A stretch of DNA of 64,000 nt, taken from Eubacteriales bacterium (lineage in GTDB: Bacteria > Bacillota > Clostridia > Oscillospirales > JAAYXM01). Below the pieces are notes generated by a model. It ran no database searches and was not told the origin of the DNA. It saw only the letters and a program-made list of their open reading frames with translations. Location of the stretch: positions 12,878 through 76,877 of the forward strand of contig JAZRPG010000022.1 of NCBI GenBank assembly GCA_045649105.1, in the 5' to 3' direction. Shown in pieces: positions 20,782 through 62,532 of this stretch. Every line of letters begins with the position of its first letter. Position 1 is the first letter of the stretch. Position numbers and translations under genes: made by a program.

Positions 20782-22239
20782 TTAGAAGTTGAAATAAATA
20801 AAGGGGTTATATCCGCCGCTGATTGAATACGAAGCAGATACAAAGAATATACAGATCATAGCGGCAAATTTAAGCGCAGACCATATCTTTTCATACGGTT
20901 TCCCGCTGCATAATGCATTGACCTTTTCAACAACCGGGAACGAGAAAAGAAGACCGGCCAGCAACACAATCTTATACTGTCCCACCCAATATATAAAGGT
21001 GTTATCGGCAAAAACATTTCCGTTTAAATGAAGCATCGAGCTGTAATATGTAACTGCCTGCCCCACGCTTTCTGACTTGAATATGACCTTTGTAAGCAAT
21101 ACAATCAAAAAGGTTGAGAAAAAGCCAACGACGGCTGCAAGCTTCTTGTTTTGAATCGGTTTCCTGTTTTGTTCCCAAAAAATGAAAACAAATTGGATAA
21201 GCCCCCACAGCACAAAGGTCATATTTGCACCGTGCCATATGCCGGTAGACATCCAAACAACAAAAAGCACGAAGCAGGTAGAAAGAAGACCCGCGGTTTT
21301 TCTCTCAAATTTCTTTGACAGCTTCTTTCGTATCTTTATCGCAGGACCTAAAGAGAGCGGATAATACAGATAATCTCGGAACCACTCACCTAAGGAGATA
21401 TGCCATCTTCTCCAGTACTCAGTGATTGATTTTGATACATATGGATAATTAAAGTTCAGGTTAAATGTAAAACCGAACATTTTTCCGAGCCCGATAGCCA
21501 TATCCGAGTATCCGGAAAAATCAAAATAGATTTGCAGCATATAGGCAAGCGCGCCAACCCATGCAAGCGCGACGGACAACTCACCGCCATTGGCGGAAAA
21601 AGCCAAATCGGATAAAGGAGCAAGCTGGTTGGCTAAAAGAACCTTTTTCCCGAGACCTATACAGAAATGATAGGCTCCGGAAGAAAACTTTTCAAACGAA
21701 TGCCCCCTGTTTTTCAGCTGTTCTGCAATCGAGCCGTAACGCACGATAGGGCCGGCCACCAGCTGCGGGAAGAAGGCAATATACAGCCCGACATTTAAAA
21801 TATTAGTCTGTGCCTCGTCTTTCTTTCTGTACACATCGATTACATAGGACAGCGCCTGAAACGTATAAAAGGATATCCCGATAGGCAAAGCCAGATTTGA
21901 CAGCGCACCTACAGATCTGCCCAACAGATCCAGTGTCCAGGACAGATATTTGAATACGAATAAAAGACCCAGATTGAAAATGCATCCGATCGCTACAATC
22001 CACTTTCCTTTAGTCGTTTTCGGGCAGGTAGAAACCGCAAGACCGAGGAAATAGTTCACCACAATACTCAGAATCATCAAAAAAACGTAAAGCGGTTCAC
22101 CCCAGGCATAGAAAAACAGAGAAACGATAAGAAGCCAGACGTTTCGCAACGAAATGTTTTTCCAAATAAAGAGAAAATAGTATACAACTAATGTTATGGG
22201 TAGAAAGAGAAACAAAAATACTGCATCTGAAAAAACCAT
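20782..22239 (-). CDS. MBOAT O-acyltransferase (AlgI/DltB-like)
   Basis: LPIGISFYTFQ, FFPQLVAGPIVRY, YFDFSGYSDMAIG, WRRWHISL, GIWHGA, YNPFIYFNF. Confidence 0.95.
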   Translation of the reverse strand: MVFSDAVFLFLFLPITLVVYYFLFIWKNISLRNVWLLIVSLFFYAWGEPLYVFLMILSIVVNYFLGLAVSTCPKTTKGKWIVAIGCIFNLGLLFVFKYLSWTLDLLGRSVGALSNLALPIGISFYTFQALSYVIDVYRKKDEAQTNILNVGLYIAFFPQLVAGPIVRYGSIAEQLKNRGHSFEKFSSGAYHFCIGLGKKVLLANQLAPLSDLAFSANGGELSVALAWVGALAYMLQIYFDFSGYSDMAIGLGKMFGFTFNLNFNYPYVSKSITEYWRRWHISLGEWFRDYLYYPLSLGPAIKIRKKLSKKFERKTAGLLSTCFVLFVVWMSTGIWHGANMTFVLWGLIQFVFIFWEQNRKPIQNKKLAAVVGFFSTFLIVLLTKVIFKSESVGQAVTYYSSMLHLNGNVFADNTFIYWVGQYKIVLLAGLLFSFPVVEKVNALCSGKPYEKIWSALKFAAMICIFFVSASYSISGGYNPFIYFNF

Positions 22240-59601: not shown

Positions 59602-60066
59602 ATGGAAATACAGATGATAAAAGACGGTGTTTTAGCGGCGTTTGTCAGTCATGATGAGCTTACGGAGAGAGGTCTTTCCGACGGGAGATTCAATTCCGAG
59701 AGTGCACACGATATAGCCCGCGAGGCGCTTTTTGAGTCGGGCGAGAGAAATATCGGCGAAATTGAGGTTGATGCGTACATAAACGGCTGCGGGCTTATGC
59801 TGTTTGCTGCAGTGCGGAAAGAGGGCAAAAGCGCCGTAAAATTCAGCTCACTTGAAGCTTTGCTTTCATATGTTGCATGCCTTCCGCGGGATACGGAATC
59901 GCGCCTTGTCCTCTTGGACGGAGAGTATTGCCTGATTTCCCCCTGCTTATCTCAGAAGGCTCGGGAGTATGGCGAGGTGTGCAGATGTACGGAGGATATC
60001 ATGTGCGCGGCGCCGCTTATAAAAAAGCAAGCCGTTGCGCAGTTATATAACTATTTTCATTTGTAG
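59602..60066 (+). CDS. MecA-like adaptor protein (short, divergent)
   Basis: N-terminal DELTERGL, then FSSLEAL, EYG and C-terminal LIKKQAVAQLYNYF echo MecA; recognised by eye only. Confidence 0.5.
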   Translation: MEIQMIKDGVLAAFVSHDELTERGLSDGRFNSESAHDIAREALFESGERNIGEIEVDAYINGCGLMLFAAVRKEGKSAVKFSSLEALLSYVACLPRDTESRLVLLDGEYCLISPCLSQKAREYGEVCRCTEDIMCAAPLIKKQAVAQLYNYFHL

Positions 60067-60107
60067 AAAAACATCCCTGCCCTTTATGCCGAGTGTTCTA
60101 AAGGACA
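60067..60107 (+). repeat. left ~40-bp inverted repeat of islet
   Basis: AAAAACATCCC..ATGCCGAGTGTTCTAAAGGACA is a near reverse complement of 61643-61682. Confidence 0.8.
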
Positions 60108-60109
60108 GT

Positions 60110-60142
60110 AAAAGCCTTGAACTCGTTGAGTTCAAGGCTTTT
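60110..60142. terminator. bidirectional terminator
   Basis: AAAAGCCTTGAACTC-GTT-GAGTTCAAGGCTTTT perfect 15-bp stem. Confidence 0.8.
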
Positions 60143-60181
60143 CTATTATCCCTTTGCACAAGAGAACCTAGAAACGATTTT

Positions 60182-60610
60182 TTATATTCTATCGTTTATG
60201 TACTTTGCAATTCTGCTTGCATCAGACGATGATACACCTATTTTGTATATCACTCCGTTGCTGTTTATTAAAAGCTTATCTTTATTTACAGACACACTTG
60301 ATATTTTGTCATAGCTTAAAGAAAAAGAAGCACGAGTGAAATTAATAAGTCCTTCTCCTTGAATATAATTTTCGAAAACAGAGATGCAGGTTTTTGAAAA
60401 TTTGGCTCCGATCACGATTATAAAAATTCCTACACATTTTATTAAGAGATCAATTATGGTAGTTGTCATCGCAAGCTCATCTTCATTTCTGCTCCCTTCA
60501 ATTCCAAAAGAGAAAACAGTGGTAATTATAACTGTAAAAATTATTATAGCAATTCCAATCATAATCAGTTTTTTGCCGCTTCCTTGCACACTTATAACAG
60601 GGTTGTTCAT
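60182..60610 (-). CDS. small two-TM membrane protein, unknown function (alternative start 60661)
   Basis: GGAGGT RBS before ATG 60610; two hydrophobic helices and a short soluble C-terminus; AT-rich. Confidence 0.72.
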   Translation of the reverse strand: MNNPVISVQGSGKKLIMIGIAIIIFTVIITTVFSFGIEGSRNEDELAMTTTIIDLLIKCVGIFIIVIGAKFSKTCISVFENYIQGEGLINFTRASFSLSYDKISSVSVNKDKLLINSNGVIYKIGVSSSDASRIAKYINDRI

Positions 60611-60695
60611 AATTTTACCTCCAAGTTTTATTTTTGCGCATATTATCTGTTGGAGCTTCATCTTTTCACCACCTATCAGCTATAGACTTACAAAT

Positions 60696-60900
60696 AAAAA
60701 ATGCGCCTACCGAAGCAGACGCACAAAAACGCAAACTCCGATAGTCGCCAAACTAACTTAAATAAAGATAGGAGCATTCCACAACAATATTTAATGGAGT
60801 TCGCATTTTTAACTAATCCAAAATATTGTTGCAGAAAAAGAGTATAAATATCCCTAAAAACAAAAATACTCCTAAACATATTTTATTAAGTTAGTTTGGC
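60696..60900 (-). ncRNA. putative structured leader / small RNA (~205 nt) ending in an intrinsic terminator
   Basis: Promoter TTGATA-17-TATAAT (60907-60935) puts +1 near 60900; long terminal stem GCCAAACTAACTTAA/TTAAGTTAGTTTGGC, inner stem, terminator TGCGTCTGC-TTCG-GTAGGCGCA-T6. Confidence 0.65.
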
Positions 60901-61028
60901 ATACTTATTATATATCAAGTTTTCATAATTATCAATATATTTCTGCAAAATTGTCCGATACTGTAACAAGCAGGGAAGAAGTGTACCATATTCCAAACAT
61001 TTAGGATAATCCTAAGACCTTATCAAAA

Positions 61029-61060
61029 AAGCCTTAAACGATAATTCTCGTTTAAGGCTT
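61029..61060 (-). terminator. terminator of four-helix-bundle gene
   Basis: AAGCCTTAAACGA...TCGTTTAAGGCTT with T-run on minus strand. Confidence 0.75.
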
Positions 61061-61064
61061 AATA

Positions 61065-61415
61065 TTATTTGGATTTGATTGTTTTTAGTGACGAAATGAG
61101 CATTCTACGAATAGCGCCACATTCATTTTGCATCTTCTTATATTTTTCTTCTTCGATACAATCTGTTTCAAAAAGCAATTCTAACCAATATTCTGTTTCG
61201 TAACACTCTTTTTGAGCAATTTCTAGTTTTGATATAAAATCATTTTTGCTTTGTGCGTATTGTGCTTCATGAAGGTTTGCTCCTATTGAAGTCGCCGAAC
61301 GCAATAATTGATTGACCAATACAGCTTCTTTGTGACTTGATTTAATTTCTCTGCAAAGAAAAACTATATTTTTAGCAAATTCTTTTGCTTTATCTCTTAA
61401 AACGCTATCCGCCAT
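61065..61415 (-). CDS. four helix bundle protein (23S rRNA IVP / TIGR02436-type)
   Basis: NQLLRSATSIGANLHEA, DFISKLEIAQKECYETEYWLELL; GAGGTG RBS. Confidence 0.92.
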   Translation of the reverse strand: MADSVLRDKAKEFAKNIVFLCREIKSSHKEAVLVNQLLRSATSIGANLHEAQYAQSKNDFISKLEIAQKECYETEYWLELLFETDCIEEEKYKKMQNECGAIRRMLISSLKTIKSK

Positions 61416-61463
61416 TTCTATCACCTCTTAAATTTATTGTACTGCTATATTATTCCTTTTTCA

Positions 61464-61636
61464 AGTGATATTCTGTACTTTGTACAGAGTGATATTTTTG
61501 ATAAATCAAAAGTGTTATTAAAACATTTGTTTTAGTGGTATTTTATTCGCCAACAAACTGTGCGAAGCACAATATCACTGCGGAGCAATATCACTTGCAA
61601 AGCAAATACCACTCGCATAATAATGCGAATAAAACT
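61464..61636. repeat. array of 4 AGTGATATT-like boxes then 4 inverted AATATCACT-like boxes, separated by mini-hairpins
   Basis: Boxes at 61464, 61488, 61511, 61534 and 61571, 61587, 61605, 61628; spacers are short palindromes. Confidence 0.9.
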
Positions 61637-61642
61637 GCCGAG

Positions 61643-61682
61643 TGTCCTTAGGAACACTCGGCATACGGGTCGGGATGTTTTT
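61643..61682 (-). repeat. right ~40-bp inverted repeat of islet
   Basis: Reverse complement AAAAACATCCCGACCCGTATGCCGAGTGTTCCTAAGGACA matches 60067-60107. Confidence 0.8.
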
Positions 61683-61704
61683 AAGAATCCGAATATTTAT
61701 GAGG

Positions 61705-62532
61705 TTAAAACAGCTTGTGAAGCAACGGTTCAAACGCAATCCCGTCCAGGCGTGAAACGCCGAGAGAGGAAGAGTAATTTACCGCGGCTTTCAGAAATGA
61801 GGTCGCGCGGCGGACGGCGCGAGAAAGAGATGTGCCGTTTATAATATATCCGCACAGAAGAGATGCAAACAGGTCACCCGTGCCGCAATATTCCCCGTCT
61901 ATGTAGCGCGCGGAAGCGCAGAAGCGTTTGCCGCTTTCGGTATCGATTGCGAGGTTGCATACATGGTTTTTGCGACGGACCCCGGTCACGACTGCTTTTT
62001 TTGCACCGACAGATGCGGCAAGCTCAAATATTTTTTCATCATCGCAGTTGCACAAATTCTTGTACGGAACACCGGTCAGAAAGCTGAGCTCTGTAAGGTT
62101 CGGCGTTATTATATCCGCTCTTGCGGAGAGCTCGCGCATTTTCTCTACCAGATTCGCTGTGTATGTGGGGTACAGCTTGCCGTGGTCGCCCATCACGGGG
62201 TCGACAAATAAAAGAGTATCAGAGCTTTTGAATTTTTCGATAAACATGTTTATAATGTCAACCTGACGCTCGCTTCCCAGAAAGCCGGTATATATTCCGT
62301 CAAAACGGAGATTGAGCTTTTCCCAGTTTTTGAGATACTGCTCCATATTGTCTGTGAAGTCGGAGAAATAATATTCATTAAAGCCCGTATGGTTTGAAAG
62401 AATTGCCGTAGGCAGAGGACATGCGCGCACGCGCAGTGCGCTCAGTACCGGGAGAGATACCGTGAGCGCACATCTGCCGAATCCCGACAGGTCGTTTATT
62501 ACGGCGCAGTTTTTGAGAATTGCGGATTTCAG
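61705..62532 (-). CDS. pdxK: pyridoxal/pyridoxamine kinase (probable CTG start)
   Basis: In-frame extension gives AVINDLSGFGRCAL; PTAILSNHTG, YTGFLG, VDPVMGDHG, ITPNLTE, GTGDLFAS. Confidence 0.88.
   Translation of the reverse strand: MKSAILKNCAVINDLSGFGRCALTVSLPVLSALRVRACPLPTAILSNHTGFNEYYFSDFTDNMEQYLKNWEKLNLRFDGIYTGFLGSERQVDIINMFIEKFKSSDTLLFVDPVMGDHGKLYPTYTANLVEKMRELSARADIITPNLTELSFLTGVPYKNLCNCDDEKIFELAASVGAKKAVVTGVRRKNHVCNLAIDTESGKRFCASARYIDGEYCGTGDLFASLLCGYIINGTSLSRAVRRATSFLKAAVNYSSSLGVSRLDGIAFEPLLHKLF

What the first reader, a model, noticed from the sequence alone, without database searches (positions are those of the whole stretch)
61065..61663. Four-helix-bundle (IVP/Avd-like) gene preceded by a regular box-and-mini-hairpin array
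Seen: directly 5' of the gene are four direct 9-mers (AGTGATATT, AGTGATATT, AGTGTTATT, AGTGGTATT) at 23-24 bp spacing. The first three are each followed by a different perfect palindrome (CTGTAC-TTT-GTACAG, TTTGAT-AA-ATCAAA, AAAAC-ATTT-GTTTT). Four inverted copies follow (AATATCACT x2, AATACCACT, AATAAAACT), each preceded by a palindrome (GTGC-GAA-GCAC, GC-GGA-GC, TGC-AAA-GCA, CGCAT-AATA-ATGCG), then a TGCCGAGTGT/ACACTCGGCA hairpin. The boxes stay constant while spacers differ in sequence yet keep pairing, which points to selection on single-stranded structure. The first box abuts the -35 of the gene's promoter (TTGAAA-17-TACAAT, 61436-61464). Established: this protein family shares its fold with DGR Avd, a pentameric nucleic-acid-binding protein, and its function outside DGRs and rRNA intervening sequences is unclear. 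Inference: the array is a folded RNA or ssDNA ligand for the oligomeric protein, making a two-part protein + structured-repeat module (autoregulatory or mobile). I know no name for it.
Basis: partly seen in the sequence, partly recalled or inferred. Interest (0 to 1): 0.85.

Follow-up and report, generated by a model that had tools for sequence, protein, structure and literature searches.

The report
Gut-1 hairpin array guarding IVP gene
The box-and-hairpin array is a copy of an orphan RNA motif already catalogued as Gut-1, but it turns out to be half of a two-armed repeat element that regularly sits in front of small four-helix-bundle (IVP) genes and travels with them, giving both unexplained families a likely partner.

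Summary
The array is not nameless: its gene-distal arm (61567-61637, minus strand) matches Rfam RF01706, the Gut-1 RNA motif, at the gathering score, and the other arm matches weakly on the opposite strand.

Beyond what Rfam models, I found four things:
- **Architecture.** The element always has two convergent arms of about four box-plus-mini-hairpin units. It starts at a terminator-like hairpin and has a covarying long-range helix that competes with the first hairpin.
- **Copy number.** It is multi-copy, with 6-8 copies in this 1.38 Mb genome. Copies often lie 30-45 nt after tRNA or tmRNA genes.
- **Link to IVP genes.** 33 of 60 IVP genes in 31 related genomes carry such an array directly upstream, against 2 of 1500 random windows. 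The box sequence tracks the IVP clade, and the two features co-occur across genomes.
- **Mobility.** In the window, array + IVP + a second ORF form a 1.58 kb AT-rich island with terminal inverted repeats, lodged in the apex of a host terminator. The island is 87% identical to a copy in another genus, in a different gene context.

Not shown: whether the IVP protein binds the array, and whether the array acts as RNA or as DNA.

Verdict: a known motif with a new and strong gene association, in what is probably a small mobile cassette.

The parts
61636..61663 (-). hp0: 12-bp terminator-like hairpin that opens the element. It is followed by GTTTTATT, and its left half is also the island's left terminal inverted repeat.
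   Evidence: I5, 10/10; terminator-like, 12 pairs
61567..61637 (-). Arm A, the Rfam Gut-1 match. Boxes at 61628-36 (degenerate), 61605-13, 61587-95, 61571-79. Mini-hairpins at 61614-27, 61596-604, 61580-86, with a fourth at 61560-70 just outside the match.
   Evidence: RF01706, 50.0 bits, E 3.8e-9, full length 1-77
61541..61550 (-). Centre: the 3' strand of long-range helix P1. It pairs with 61625-61634 (10/10) and competes with the first mini-hairpin for the same 5' strand.
   Evidence: I4; covariation
61464..61542 (+). Arm B: four boxes AGTG(A/T/G)TATT read on the plus strand, with three perfect mini-hairpins. It gives a weak Gut-1 match over 61442-61523.
   Evidence: 25 bits, E 0.0077
61436..61464 (-). 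Sigma-70-like promoter of the IVP gene, TTGAAA-17-TACAAT. Its -35 abuts the last box of arm B.
   Evidence: 10 of 12
61065..61424 (-). IVP / four-helix-bundle protein gene (PF05635, TIGR02436). Likely start is the ATG at 61415.
   Evidence: PDB 2rld_A E 5.5e-31
61029..61060 (-). Terminator-like hairpin after the IVP gene.
60182..60661 (-). ORF159: second gene of the island, a predicted membrane protein with no family match.
   Evidence: 159-aa homologue in L050
60087..60104 (-). Right terminal inverted repeat of the island: CCTTTAGAACACTCGGCA, an inverted copy of the left end TGCCGAGTGTTCCTAAGG.
60087..61663 (-). The whole 1.58 kb AT-rich island: hp0, arms, IVP, candidate sRNA X, ORF159, terminator, right repeat. 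It is 87% identical to L050 (G025) over 1592 aligned positions.
61664..61682 (-). Left half of the split host terminator (AAAAACATCCCGACCCGTA). It pairs with 60067-60086.
   Evidence: read from the sequence
60067..60086 (-). Right half of the split host terminator (TAAAGGGCAGGGATGTTTTT).

Best explanation
The array is one copy of a family of two-armed, palindromic box-and-mini-hairpin elements. Each arm, read on its own strand, is the Rfam Gut-1 motif.

The element is the conserved 5' cis-module of a small mobile cassette whose only constant gene is an IVP (Avd-like four-helix-bundle) protein. Here the cassette is a 1.58 kb island with terminal inverted repeats, inserted in the apex of the host terminator between a pyridoxal-kinase-like gene and a convergent ORF. 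Its own first hairpin replaces the lost terminator.

**Proposed working (inferred, not shown).**
- The element acts as single-stranded nucleic acid, either RNA or unwound DNA.
- Each arm folds into about four hairpins separated by a constant linker.
- A long-range helix that competes with the first hairpin allows two conformations.
- The oligomeric IVP protein recognises the repeated linker/hairpin units. This would control its own expression (the last box abuts the -35 or the ribosome-binding site) and/or keep the element stable or mobile.
- IVP-less arrays at tRNA and other terminators are derivatives or non-autonomous copies. The closest analogy is REPINs with their RAYT gene.
For: **Identity.** RF01706 at the gathering score.

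**Two arms.** Convergent plus-then-minus hit pairs recur across genomes and in all the copies I read.

**Structure.**
- 55 arrays gave 332 spacers, 320 of them distinct. Mean Watson-Crick stem is 5.2 against 3.2 in shuffles.
- The first hairpin is 94.7% paired, with compensatory changes in 6 of 8 pairs.
- The long-range helix is 94.4% paired, with compensatory changes in 10 of 11 pairs. Slid controls gave 36-51%.
- Matched 5'/centre strands show a mean perfect duplex of 10.0 nt, against 5.5 for mismatched pairs of loci.

**Link to IVP.**
- 33 of 60 IVP upstream windows score 7 or more. Controls: 1 of 300 resamples, 2 of 1500 random windows, 4 of 65 windows downstream of IVP.
- cmscan finds Gut-1 directly upstream of 17 of 68 IVP genes.
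- The geometry is fixed: 4 boxes per arm is the mode, and the last box ends a median of 53 nt before the HMM match.
- Box type follows the IVP clade.
- Genome table: both 26, Gut-1 only 9, IVP only 5, neither 21 of 61 (Fisher p 2.6e-5). Among 29 genomes each from a different family: 12, 2, 2, 13 (p 1.5e-4).
- The tRNA flank alone does not explain it. 2 of 26 tRNA cluster ends in this genome carry an array, against at least 21 of 29 tRNA-to-IVP gaps.

**Mobility.**
- The island is 87% identical in nucleotides to G025, while the neighbouring kinase is 54% identical in protein and the flanks differ.
- Inverted-repeat ends sit in split host terminators at three sites.
- Perfect direct repeats of 12-30 nt flank array+IVP in L090, L083, L081 and L043.
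- Two IVP-less arrays keep IVP remnants: L031 and L034.
Against: - No experiment or RNA data bear on protein binding or on transcription.
- Most arrays have no IVP gene beside them. Only 2 of 29 solo loci show an IVP remnant (L034's short remnant was seen by eye).
- Some genomes have arrays but no IVP gene found, for example G001 with 12 matches at 90% completeness.
- Solo arrays often have a box type that no IVP-linked array in the same genome has. G043, G033 and G034 are examples, as is the ATGATGT array at G000:C16, which precedes a non-IVP gene.
- No transposase or integrase lies in the island, so the means of movement is unknown.
- In most loci the array lies between a terminator and the gene's promoter, which argues against simple transcription. 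In at least five loci (L060, L081, L067, L090, L062) it abuts the ribosome-binding site, which argues for it. The active form is therefore unresolved.
- G-T against A-C soft pairs showed no strand bias (133 against 122), although the strand assignment in that test was not rigorous.
- Genomes of one order are related, so the p-values overstate the case.
Confidence: 0.45

Rival explanations
1. Selfish repeat with a passenger gene. The two-arm array is a REP/MITE-like dispersed element that a host or foreign enzyme spreads to terminator hairpins and tRNA 3' flanks. IVP is just frequent cargo, or a gene that profits from the element's outward promoter, and there is no molecular interaction between them.
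For: - The element is multi-copy and often sits at contig ends.
- Solo copies are the majority.
- Of 24 solo arrays, 13 face a convergent gene and 8 a co-oriented one.
- It has inverted-repeat ends and target duplications.
- The second gene of the island differs between copies: ORF159 here and another ORF in L056.
- Box types occur without a matching IVP in the same genome.
Against: - The passenger is always the same small family. The array sits at a fixed distance 5' of it in 33 of 60 cases, and each IVP clade has its own box.
- Random MITE copies should decay by uncompensated mutation. Here hairpins and the long-range helix covary.
Confidence: 0.25
2. Stand-alone small RNA, as Rfam files it. 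Each arm is an independently transcribed Gut-1 sRNA with a cellular role unrelated to IVP, and the adjacency reflects a shared liking for terminator-rich spacers.
For: - Weinberg 2010 rated Gut-1 'RNA: Y, cis-regulatory: n' (passages read).
- There is strong covariation.
- A conserved U-G closing pair occurs in 25 of 26 first hairpins and G-U in 7 of 26 at one P1 pair. Both are strand-specific features.
- In some loci the array must be transcribed with the IVP mRNA.
Against: - The arms sit on opposite strands and converge, usually behind a terminator with both an A-run and a T-run. I saw no conserved promoter of their own.
- Adjacency to IVP exceeds the tRNA-flank baseline.
- No RNA evidence was obtainable.
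Confidence: 0.15
3. Double-stranded DNA operator. The boxes are binding sites for a DNA-binding regulator (IVP or another protein) that controls the adjacent promoter, and the hairpins are incidental.
For: - The last box abuts the -35 in many loci.
- The median box period is 21 nt, about two helical turns.
- Boxes within an array are homogenised.
Against: - Palindromic spacers with compensatory change, and a long-range helix, have no role in dsDNA binding.
- The period ranges from 14 to 34 nt, so phasing is poor.
- Solo arrays often have no co-oriented gene downstream.
Confidence: 0.1

Closest known systems
Gut-1 RNA motif (Rfam RF01706; Weinberg et al. 2010, PMC2864571)
   Same: Arm A matches the full model (positions 1-77) at the gathering score. 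It has the same plan of hairpins separated by GUGAAAU-type linkers whose AU...GU ends extend each stem.
   Different: - The Rfam model has three hairpins on one strand. Here the unit has four hairpins per arm and two convergent arms, plus a leading terminator-like hairpin and a covarying long-range helix.
- The paper's main text lists Gut-1 as 'human gut only', non-cis-regulatory, in no cultivated organism.
- The main text does not mention a tRNA/tmRNA position or an IVP link. I could not see its Additional file 1.
REP/REPIN elements with their RAYT gene (recalled: Bertels and Rainey 2011; not read here)
   Same: Short palindromic repeats dispersed in terminator-side spacers, occurring as inverted doublets. 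A low-copy gene is flanked by the same repeats, and gene clade and repeat type go together.
   Different: - The associated protein is a 116-aa four-helix bundle, not an HUH/Y1 transposase.
- The repeats lie on one side of the gene (5').
- The units are constant linkers with variable hairpins, rather than one conserved hairpin.
23S rRNA intervening sequences that encode IVP / S23p (abstract of PMC4990558 seen in a search listing)
   Same: The same protein family is carried on a small element whose ends pair. The element sits at the tip of a hairpin of a stable-RNA-related locus: here a terminator apex or a tRNA 3' flank, there an rRNA helix tip. 2 of 20 IVP loci from the phylum sample that I scanned lie inside 23S rRNA.
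   Different: The window's copy is not in rRNA. It has its own promoter and the box-hairpin array. I did not test for RNase III excision.
DGR accessory protein Avd with the DGR RNA (context from PMC10053308, passages read; Avd's pentamer and nucleic-acid binding are recalled)
   Same: Same fold family. In DGRs the protein works on a structured nucleic acid encoded next to it.
   Different: There is no reverse transcriptase, template repeat or variable repeat here. The match to the Avd equivalog is 19.5 bits against a cut-off of 80.

Membership tests
Rfam RF01706 Gut-1 RNA | Covariance-model score at or above the curated gathering score (50 bits), full-length match | tested here: met
   61567-61637 (minus): 50.0 bits, E 3.8e-9, model 1-77 of 77. 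This is exactly at threshold. Relatives score up to 90.4 bits.
Rfam RF01706 Gut-1 RNA | Hairpins with compensatory changes, separated by a constant GUGAAAU-like linker | tested here: met
   The linker here is GUGAUAU / GUGGUAU.
Rfam RF01706 Gut-1 RNA | Expressed as an RNA | not testable with these tools
   No RNA run holds the stretch.
PF05635 / TIGR02436 four-helix-bundle (23S rRNA IVP) protein | HMM score above the curated cut-off | tested here: met
   99.3 bits against 33.8; 109.8 bits against 24; PDB 2rld_A E 5.5e-31, an entry with 5 chains.
PF05635 / TIGR02436 four-helix-bundle (23S rRNA IVP) protein | Conserved RxxxSxxxNxxE helix motif (as described in PMC3936711, passage read) | tested here: met
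   LLRSATSIGANLHEAQ in the translation.
DGR Avd (NF033474) | Equivalog score of 80 bits or more, with a neighbouring reverse transcriptase and template/variable repeats | tested here: not met
   19.5 bits. No RT-like ORF lies in 58.5-64 kb.
23S rRNA intervening sequence | Located inside a 23S rRNA gene | tested here: not met
   No rRNA match in 60000-62500. The neighbours are a kinase gene and ORFs.
MITE / TIR-bounded insertion | Terminal inverted repeats, discrete boundaries, and the same element in unrelated contexts | tested here: met
   A short form of about 280 bp at G000:C38 has the same ends.
MITE / TIR-bounded insertion | A cognate transposase, and an empty site in a relative | tested here: inconclusive
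   No transposase lies in the island. No syntenic empty site was found: kinase neighbours differ in all 29 family loci, and the metagenome scan found nothing.
REP/RAYT system | Associated gene is an HUH (Y1) transposase | tested here: not met
   The associated gene is PF05635.

The most novel reading that the evidence does not exclude
Free-standing IVP (Avd-like) proteins are the trans-acting partners of a previously unrecognised class of small hairpin-seeking cassettes. An oligomeric four-helix-bundle protein reads an array of about 4+4 repeated linker/hairpin units (Gut-1 in this order; tandem 7-11-mers in forward-then-inverted arrays in other Bacillota). The pair inserts at the tips of hairpins and at the 3' ends of stable-RNA genes, and the 23S rRNA intervening sequences would be one special case of the same behaviour. 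If so, a widespread protein family of unknown function and an orphan Rfam motif would be explained together.
Probability: 0.3. Interest if true: 0.85.

Novelty: new variant of a known kind. Interest (0 to 1): 0.68.

Why it matters
PF05635/TIGR02436 proteins are common in bacteria, and outside DGRs they have no assigned function. Gut-1 has been an orphan motif since 2010.

A reproducible, clade-specific pairing of the two turns both into testable objects. One small protein and one 200-nt nucleic acid can be put into a gel-shift, a reporter assay or a structure determination.

The cassette's position may also explain why the same protein family turns up inside 23S rRNA helices. It sits in terminator apexes and at tRNA/tmRNA 3' ends, and target sequence is duplicated at its edges.

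For annotation, Gut-1 hits should be read as one arm of a larger DNA palindrome, not as a proven sRNA gene.

Tried and rejected
- **Expression.** The look-up of sequencing runs listed no RNA holder. This says nothing about expression.
- **Empty site.**
  - A metagenome scan with the kinase protein found no relative.
  - The 29 kinase loci from the family share neither of the window's two further genes on the far side of the island, ORF166 or the hisS-like gene. No unoccupied site could be compared.
- **Plasmid and phage collections.** Only the IVP coding part matched, at 72-74%, with no array. The island is therefore not a known plasmid or phage segment.
- **Defence systems.** PADLOC found nothing for IVP or ORF159.
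- **Strand bias.** G-T against A-C soft pairs were 133 against 122, no bias. However, my automatic choice of the 'sense' strand was arbitrary, so I draw nothing from it.
- **Cognate pairing of solo arrays with the genome's IVP type.** This did not hold strictly for G043, G033, G034 or G000:C16. I therefore do not claim REP/RAYT-style specificity.
- **Solo arrays as portable promoters.** Rejected: of 24 solo arrays, 13 have the next ORF convergent and only 8 have it co-oriented.
- **First k-mer box finder.** It was too noisy in AT-rich DNA. I replaced it with a spacing-aware detector that has controls. That detector still misses known positives: L036 scored 0 and L050 scored 5. The figure of 33 of 60 is therefore a lower bound. 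cmscan also misses arrays with diverged boxes (L056, L074).
- **Literature.**
  - Searches for 'Gut-1 RNA', 'Gut-1', PF05635/S23p/IVP terms, four-helix-bundle/TIGR02436/Avd-like terms, and STRR/heptamer/tRNA terms found no paper linking Gut-1 or any repeat array to IVP genes.
  - Only the open-access library was searched.
  - Supplements are closed, and Additional files 1 and 2 of Weinberg 2010 may describe Gut-1 gene contexts.
Full report
**1. The observation.**

- Four direct boxes AGTG(A/A/T/G)TATT lie at 61464, 61488, 61511 and 61534.
- Three perfect mini-palindromes lie between them.
- Four inverted boxes lie at 61571, 61587, 61605 and 61628 (the last degenerate). Each is preceded by a mini-palindrome.
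- A 10+10 hairpin lies at 61636-61663.

The box pattern occurs 8 times in the 64 kb window, against 1.44 expected, and 0 of 100 shuffles reached 8. The gene at 61065-61424 (minus) is a PF05635/TIGR02436 four-helix-bundle protein. Its nearest solved relative is 2rld_A (E 5.5e-31), an entry with five chains. The promoter TTGAAA-17-TACAAT at 61464-61436 was found by the scan.

**2. It has a name.**

A scan against Rfam places 61567-61637 (minus) in RF01706, Gut-1 RNA. The match is 50.0 bits against a gathering score of 50, E 3.8e-9, over the full model. The left half, 61442-61523 (plus), matches at 25 bits.

The printed alignment shows the family's plan. Hairpins are separated by GUGAAAU, and the AU and GU of neighbouring linkers extend each stem by an A-U and a U-G pair.

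Weinberg et al. 2010 (passages read) list Gut-1 as certainly an RNA, probably not cis-regulatory, 'human gut only', and known in no cultivated organism. Details are in supplementary files that I could not open. The only other paper in the library that names it uses it as a folding benchmark.

**3. What the element really looks like.**

The window's own assembly (1.38 Mb, 46 contigs) has 11 matches at E of 10 or less, six of them at E 2.2e-5 or better. It has only one IVP gene (tblastn).

I read these copies and the best copy from each of about 30 related genomes. They share one architecture, in this order:
- a terminator-like hairpin (hp0), often with an A-run before it and a T-run after it;
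- a degenerate box;
- four mini-hairpins separated by boxes (arm A);
- a short centre;
- three to four mini-hairpins separated by inverted boxes (arm B).

Read on the other strand, arm B is again a Gut-1-like arm, so the two arms converge. Convergent plus/minus hit pairs about 20 nt apart are frequent in the hit list. The box differs by lineage: GTGAAAT, GTGATAT, ATGAAAT, ATGATGT, ATGAAGN, GTGAAGT, GATGATAT and others.

**4. Structure is conserved, not sequence.**
- In 55 arrays, 320 of 332 inter-box spacers are distinct. Their best Watson-Crick stem averages 5.2 pairs, against 3.2 for shuffled spacers, and 167 of 332 beat all 20 of their shuffles.
- On a MAFFT alignment of 26 elements made without structural guidance, the first hairpin is 94.7% paired, with double-sided changes in 6 of 8 pairs.
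- A feature not in the Rfam model: the 5' strand of that hairpin plus the tail of the first box is also complementary to the centre of the element. In the window this is 61625-34 with 61541-50, 10 of 10.
- This long-range helix is 94.4% paired, with double-sided changes in 10 of 11 pairs. Slid controls gave 36-51%.
- 24 of 31 elements have a perfect duplex of 9 nt or more there. The mean is 10.0 nt, against 5.5 for mismatched pairs of loci.

The two helices share a strand and so exclude each other. Both strands of the window's element fold far better than shuffles (z -6.5 and -8.4), as expected for a DNA palindrome.

**5. Where it sits.**
- Of the 29 best-per-genome Gut-1 loci from relatives, 13 lie 30-45 nt downstream of a tRNA gene, or in one case a tmRNA gene, on the same strand.
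- Many matches lie at contig ends, as repeats do.
- In the phylum-wide sample, only 2 of 150 other genomes have a match at E of 1e-5 or less. Among relatives of the same family and order, 35 of 61 have a match at E of 1e-3 or less.

**6. The link with IVP genes.**

PF05635 genes were found in 31 of the same 61 genomes. I fetched all 68 of them with their flanks.
- cmscan at E below 0.01 finds Gut-1 directly upstream of 17. It misses arrays with diverged boxes, such as L056 and L074.
- A box-agnostic detector looks for at least 3 copies of any 7-mer at 14-34 nt spacing, followed by at least 2 inverted copies. It scores 7 or more in 33 of the 60 upstream windows that are full length.
- Controls for that detector: 1 of 300 composition-matched resamples, 2 of 1500 random windows of this genome (one is a true array), and 4 of 65 windows downstream of IVP (Fisher tests).
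- The geometry is constant. Four boxes per arm is the mode, the median period is 21 nt, and the last box ends a median of 53 nt before the protein match.
- 29 of 68 IVP genes also have a tRNA gene within 550 nt or less upstream. At least 21 of those 29 gaps hold an array.
- Only 2 of 26 tRNA cluster ends in this genome do. A shared liking for tRNA flanks therefore does not explain the link.
- Box type tracks the IVP clade closely. One clade (L042, L043, L044, L054, L075) has no array.
- Across genomes the two features co-occur: both 26, Gut-1 only 9, IVP only 5, neither 21. Among 29 genomes of 29 different families the counts are 12, 2, 2 and 13. Relatedness inflates these p-values.

**7. A mobile cassette.**

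Window 60087-61663 is AT-rich. It aligns at 87% over 1592 positions with G025:C126, from another genus. The neighbouring kinase is only 54% identical in protein between the two genomes, and the flanking genes differ.

The island has these features:
- It begins with TGCCGAGTGTTCCTAAGG and ends with its inverted copy CCTTTAGAACACTCGGCA.
- The host sequence on either side (AAAAACATCCCGACCCGT... and ...AAAGGGCAGGGATGTTTTT) is itself an inverted repeat with A- and T-runs, that is, a split bidirectional terminator.

The same holds for three other copies:
- a 280-bp array-only copy in this genome (C38);
- the G025 copy;
- an island in a different family that carries a different second gene (L056).

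Elsewhere, array+IVP units are flanked by perfect direct repeats:
- a 30-nt terminator repeat in L090;
- 18-19 nt of a tRNA 3' end in L083 and L043;
- 17 nt inside the 3' end of a methyltransferase-like gene in L081.

Two IVP-less arrays retain IVP remnants: L031 keeps residues 63-112, and L034 keeps the last seven codons. No recombinase is encoded in the island.

**8. What remains open.**
- *Binding.* Nothing here shows that the protein touches the array.
- *Active form.* In most loci the array lies between a terminator and the gene's own promoter. In at least five it abuts the ribosome-binding site with no room for a promoter. The active form could be RNA, ssDNA or dsDNA.
- *Solo arrays.* They are the majority. 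They often face a convergent gene, and they sometimes have a box type with no matching IVP in the genome.

My preferred reading, at about 45%, is a protein-plus-structured-repeat cassette in which IVP reads the repeated units. The main rival, at about 25%, is a selfish repeat with IVP as habitual cargo.

**9. Beyond the order.**

In a sample of 28 IVP loci from other Bacillota, two lie inside 23S rRNA (2 of the 20 loci scanned). Five or six are preceded by forward-then-inverted arrays of tandem 7-11-mers without mini-hairpins. The same type occurs in L063, L066, L079, L083 and L084 within the order. This hints that 'IVP gene behind a palindromic repeat array' is general, but my detector was not built for that type and I did not quantify it.

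**10. Verdict.**
- The array is a known Rfam family.
- The association with IVP genes, the two-arm architecture with a competing long-range helix, and the cassette behaviour were not found in the literature I could search.
- They are worth a bench test.

Noticed in passing
window 60692-60912 (minus strand): Candidate structured sRNA of about 215 nt between IVP and ORF159. It has a promoter-like TTGATA-17-TATAAT at 60935-60907, a long hairpin closed by GCCAAACTAACTTAA/TTAAGTTAGTTTGGC, and a terminator at 60724-60701. Folding z-score is -8.2. Similar DNA occurs in many of the 201 genomes sampled from the order. A 13-sequence alignment gives 34 predicted pairs, 10 with compensatory changes. There is no credible Rfam match. 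It is not linked to IVP in other genomes.
   Followed up: partly
G000:C10:11389-11674 (outside the window): About 14 copies of TTTTATAAAA at roughly 20-nt spacing in an AT-rich stretch. This could be an origin or an iteron array.
   Followed up: no
L083 (G044:C21), L043 (G008:C35), L046, L077: A duplicated tRNA 3' end (12-19 nt) flanks the array+IVP units, like att sites, yet no integrase lies between the repeats. L046 and L077 carry a conserved 130-150-nt insert between the tRNA and a second copy of its 3' end.
   Followed up: partly
G000:C16:~750-940 and G000:C21:~20960-21150: A conserved segment of about 150 nt that ends in a tRNA-like T-arm/acceptor 3' half precedes the arrays at these two sites. 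ARAGORN does not call it a tRNA.
   Followed up: no
L156, L157, L165, L178, L183 (IVP loci of other Bacillota): Upstream of these IVP genes are long runs of tandem 7-11-mers followed by their inverted complement, ending at the ribosome-binding site. This is a hairpin-less counterpart of the Gut-1 array.
   Followed up: partly
G000:C16:574-702: A two-arm array with ATGATGT boxes plus a promoter precedes a signal-peptide ORF, not an IVP gene. This genome has no IVP of the clade that normally goes with that box.
   Followed up: partly
window 60182-60661 (minus strand): ORF159 is a predicted membrane protein with no match in Pfam, NCBIfam or PADLOC. Apart from the window, it was found only in the G025 copy of the island.
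   Followed up: partly
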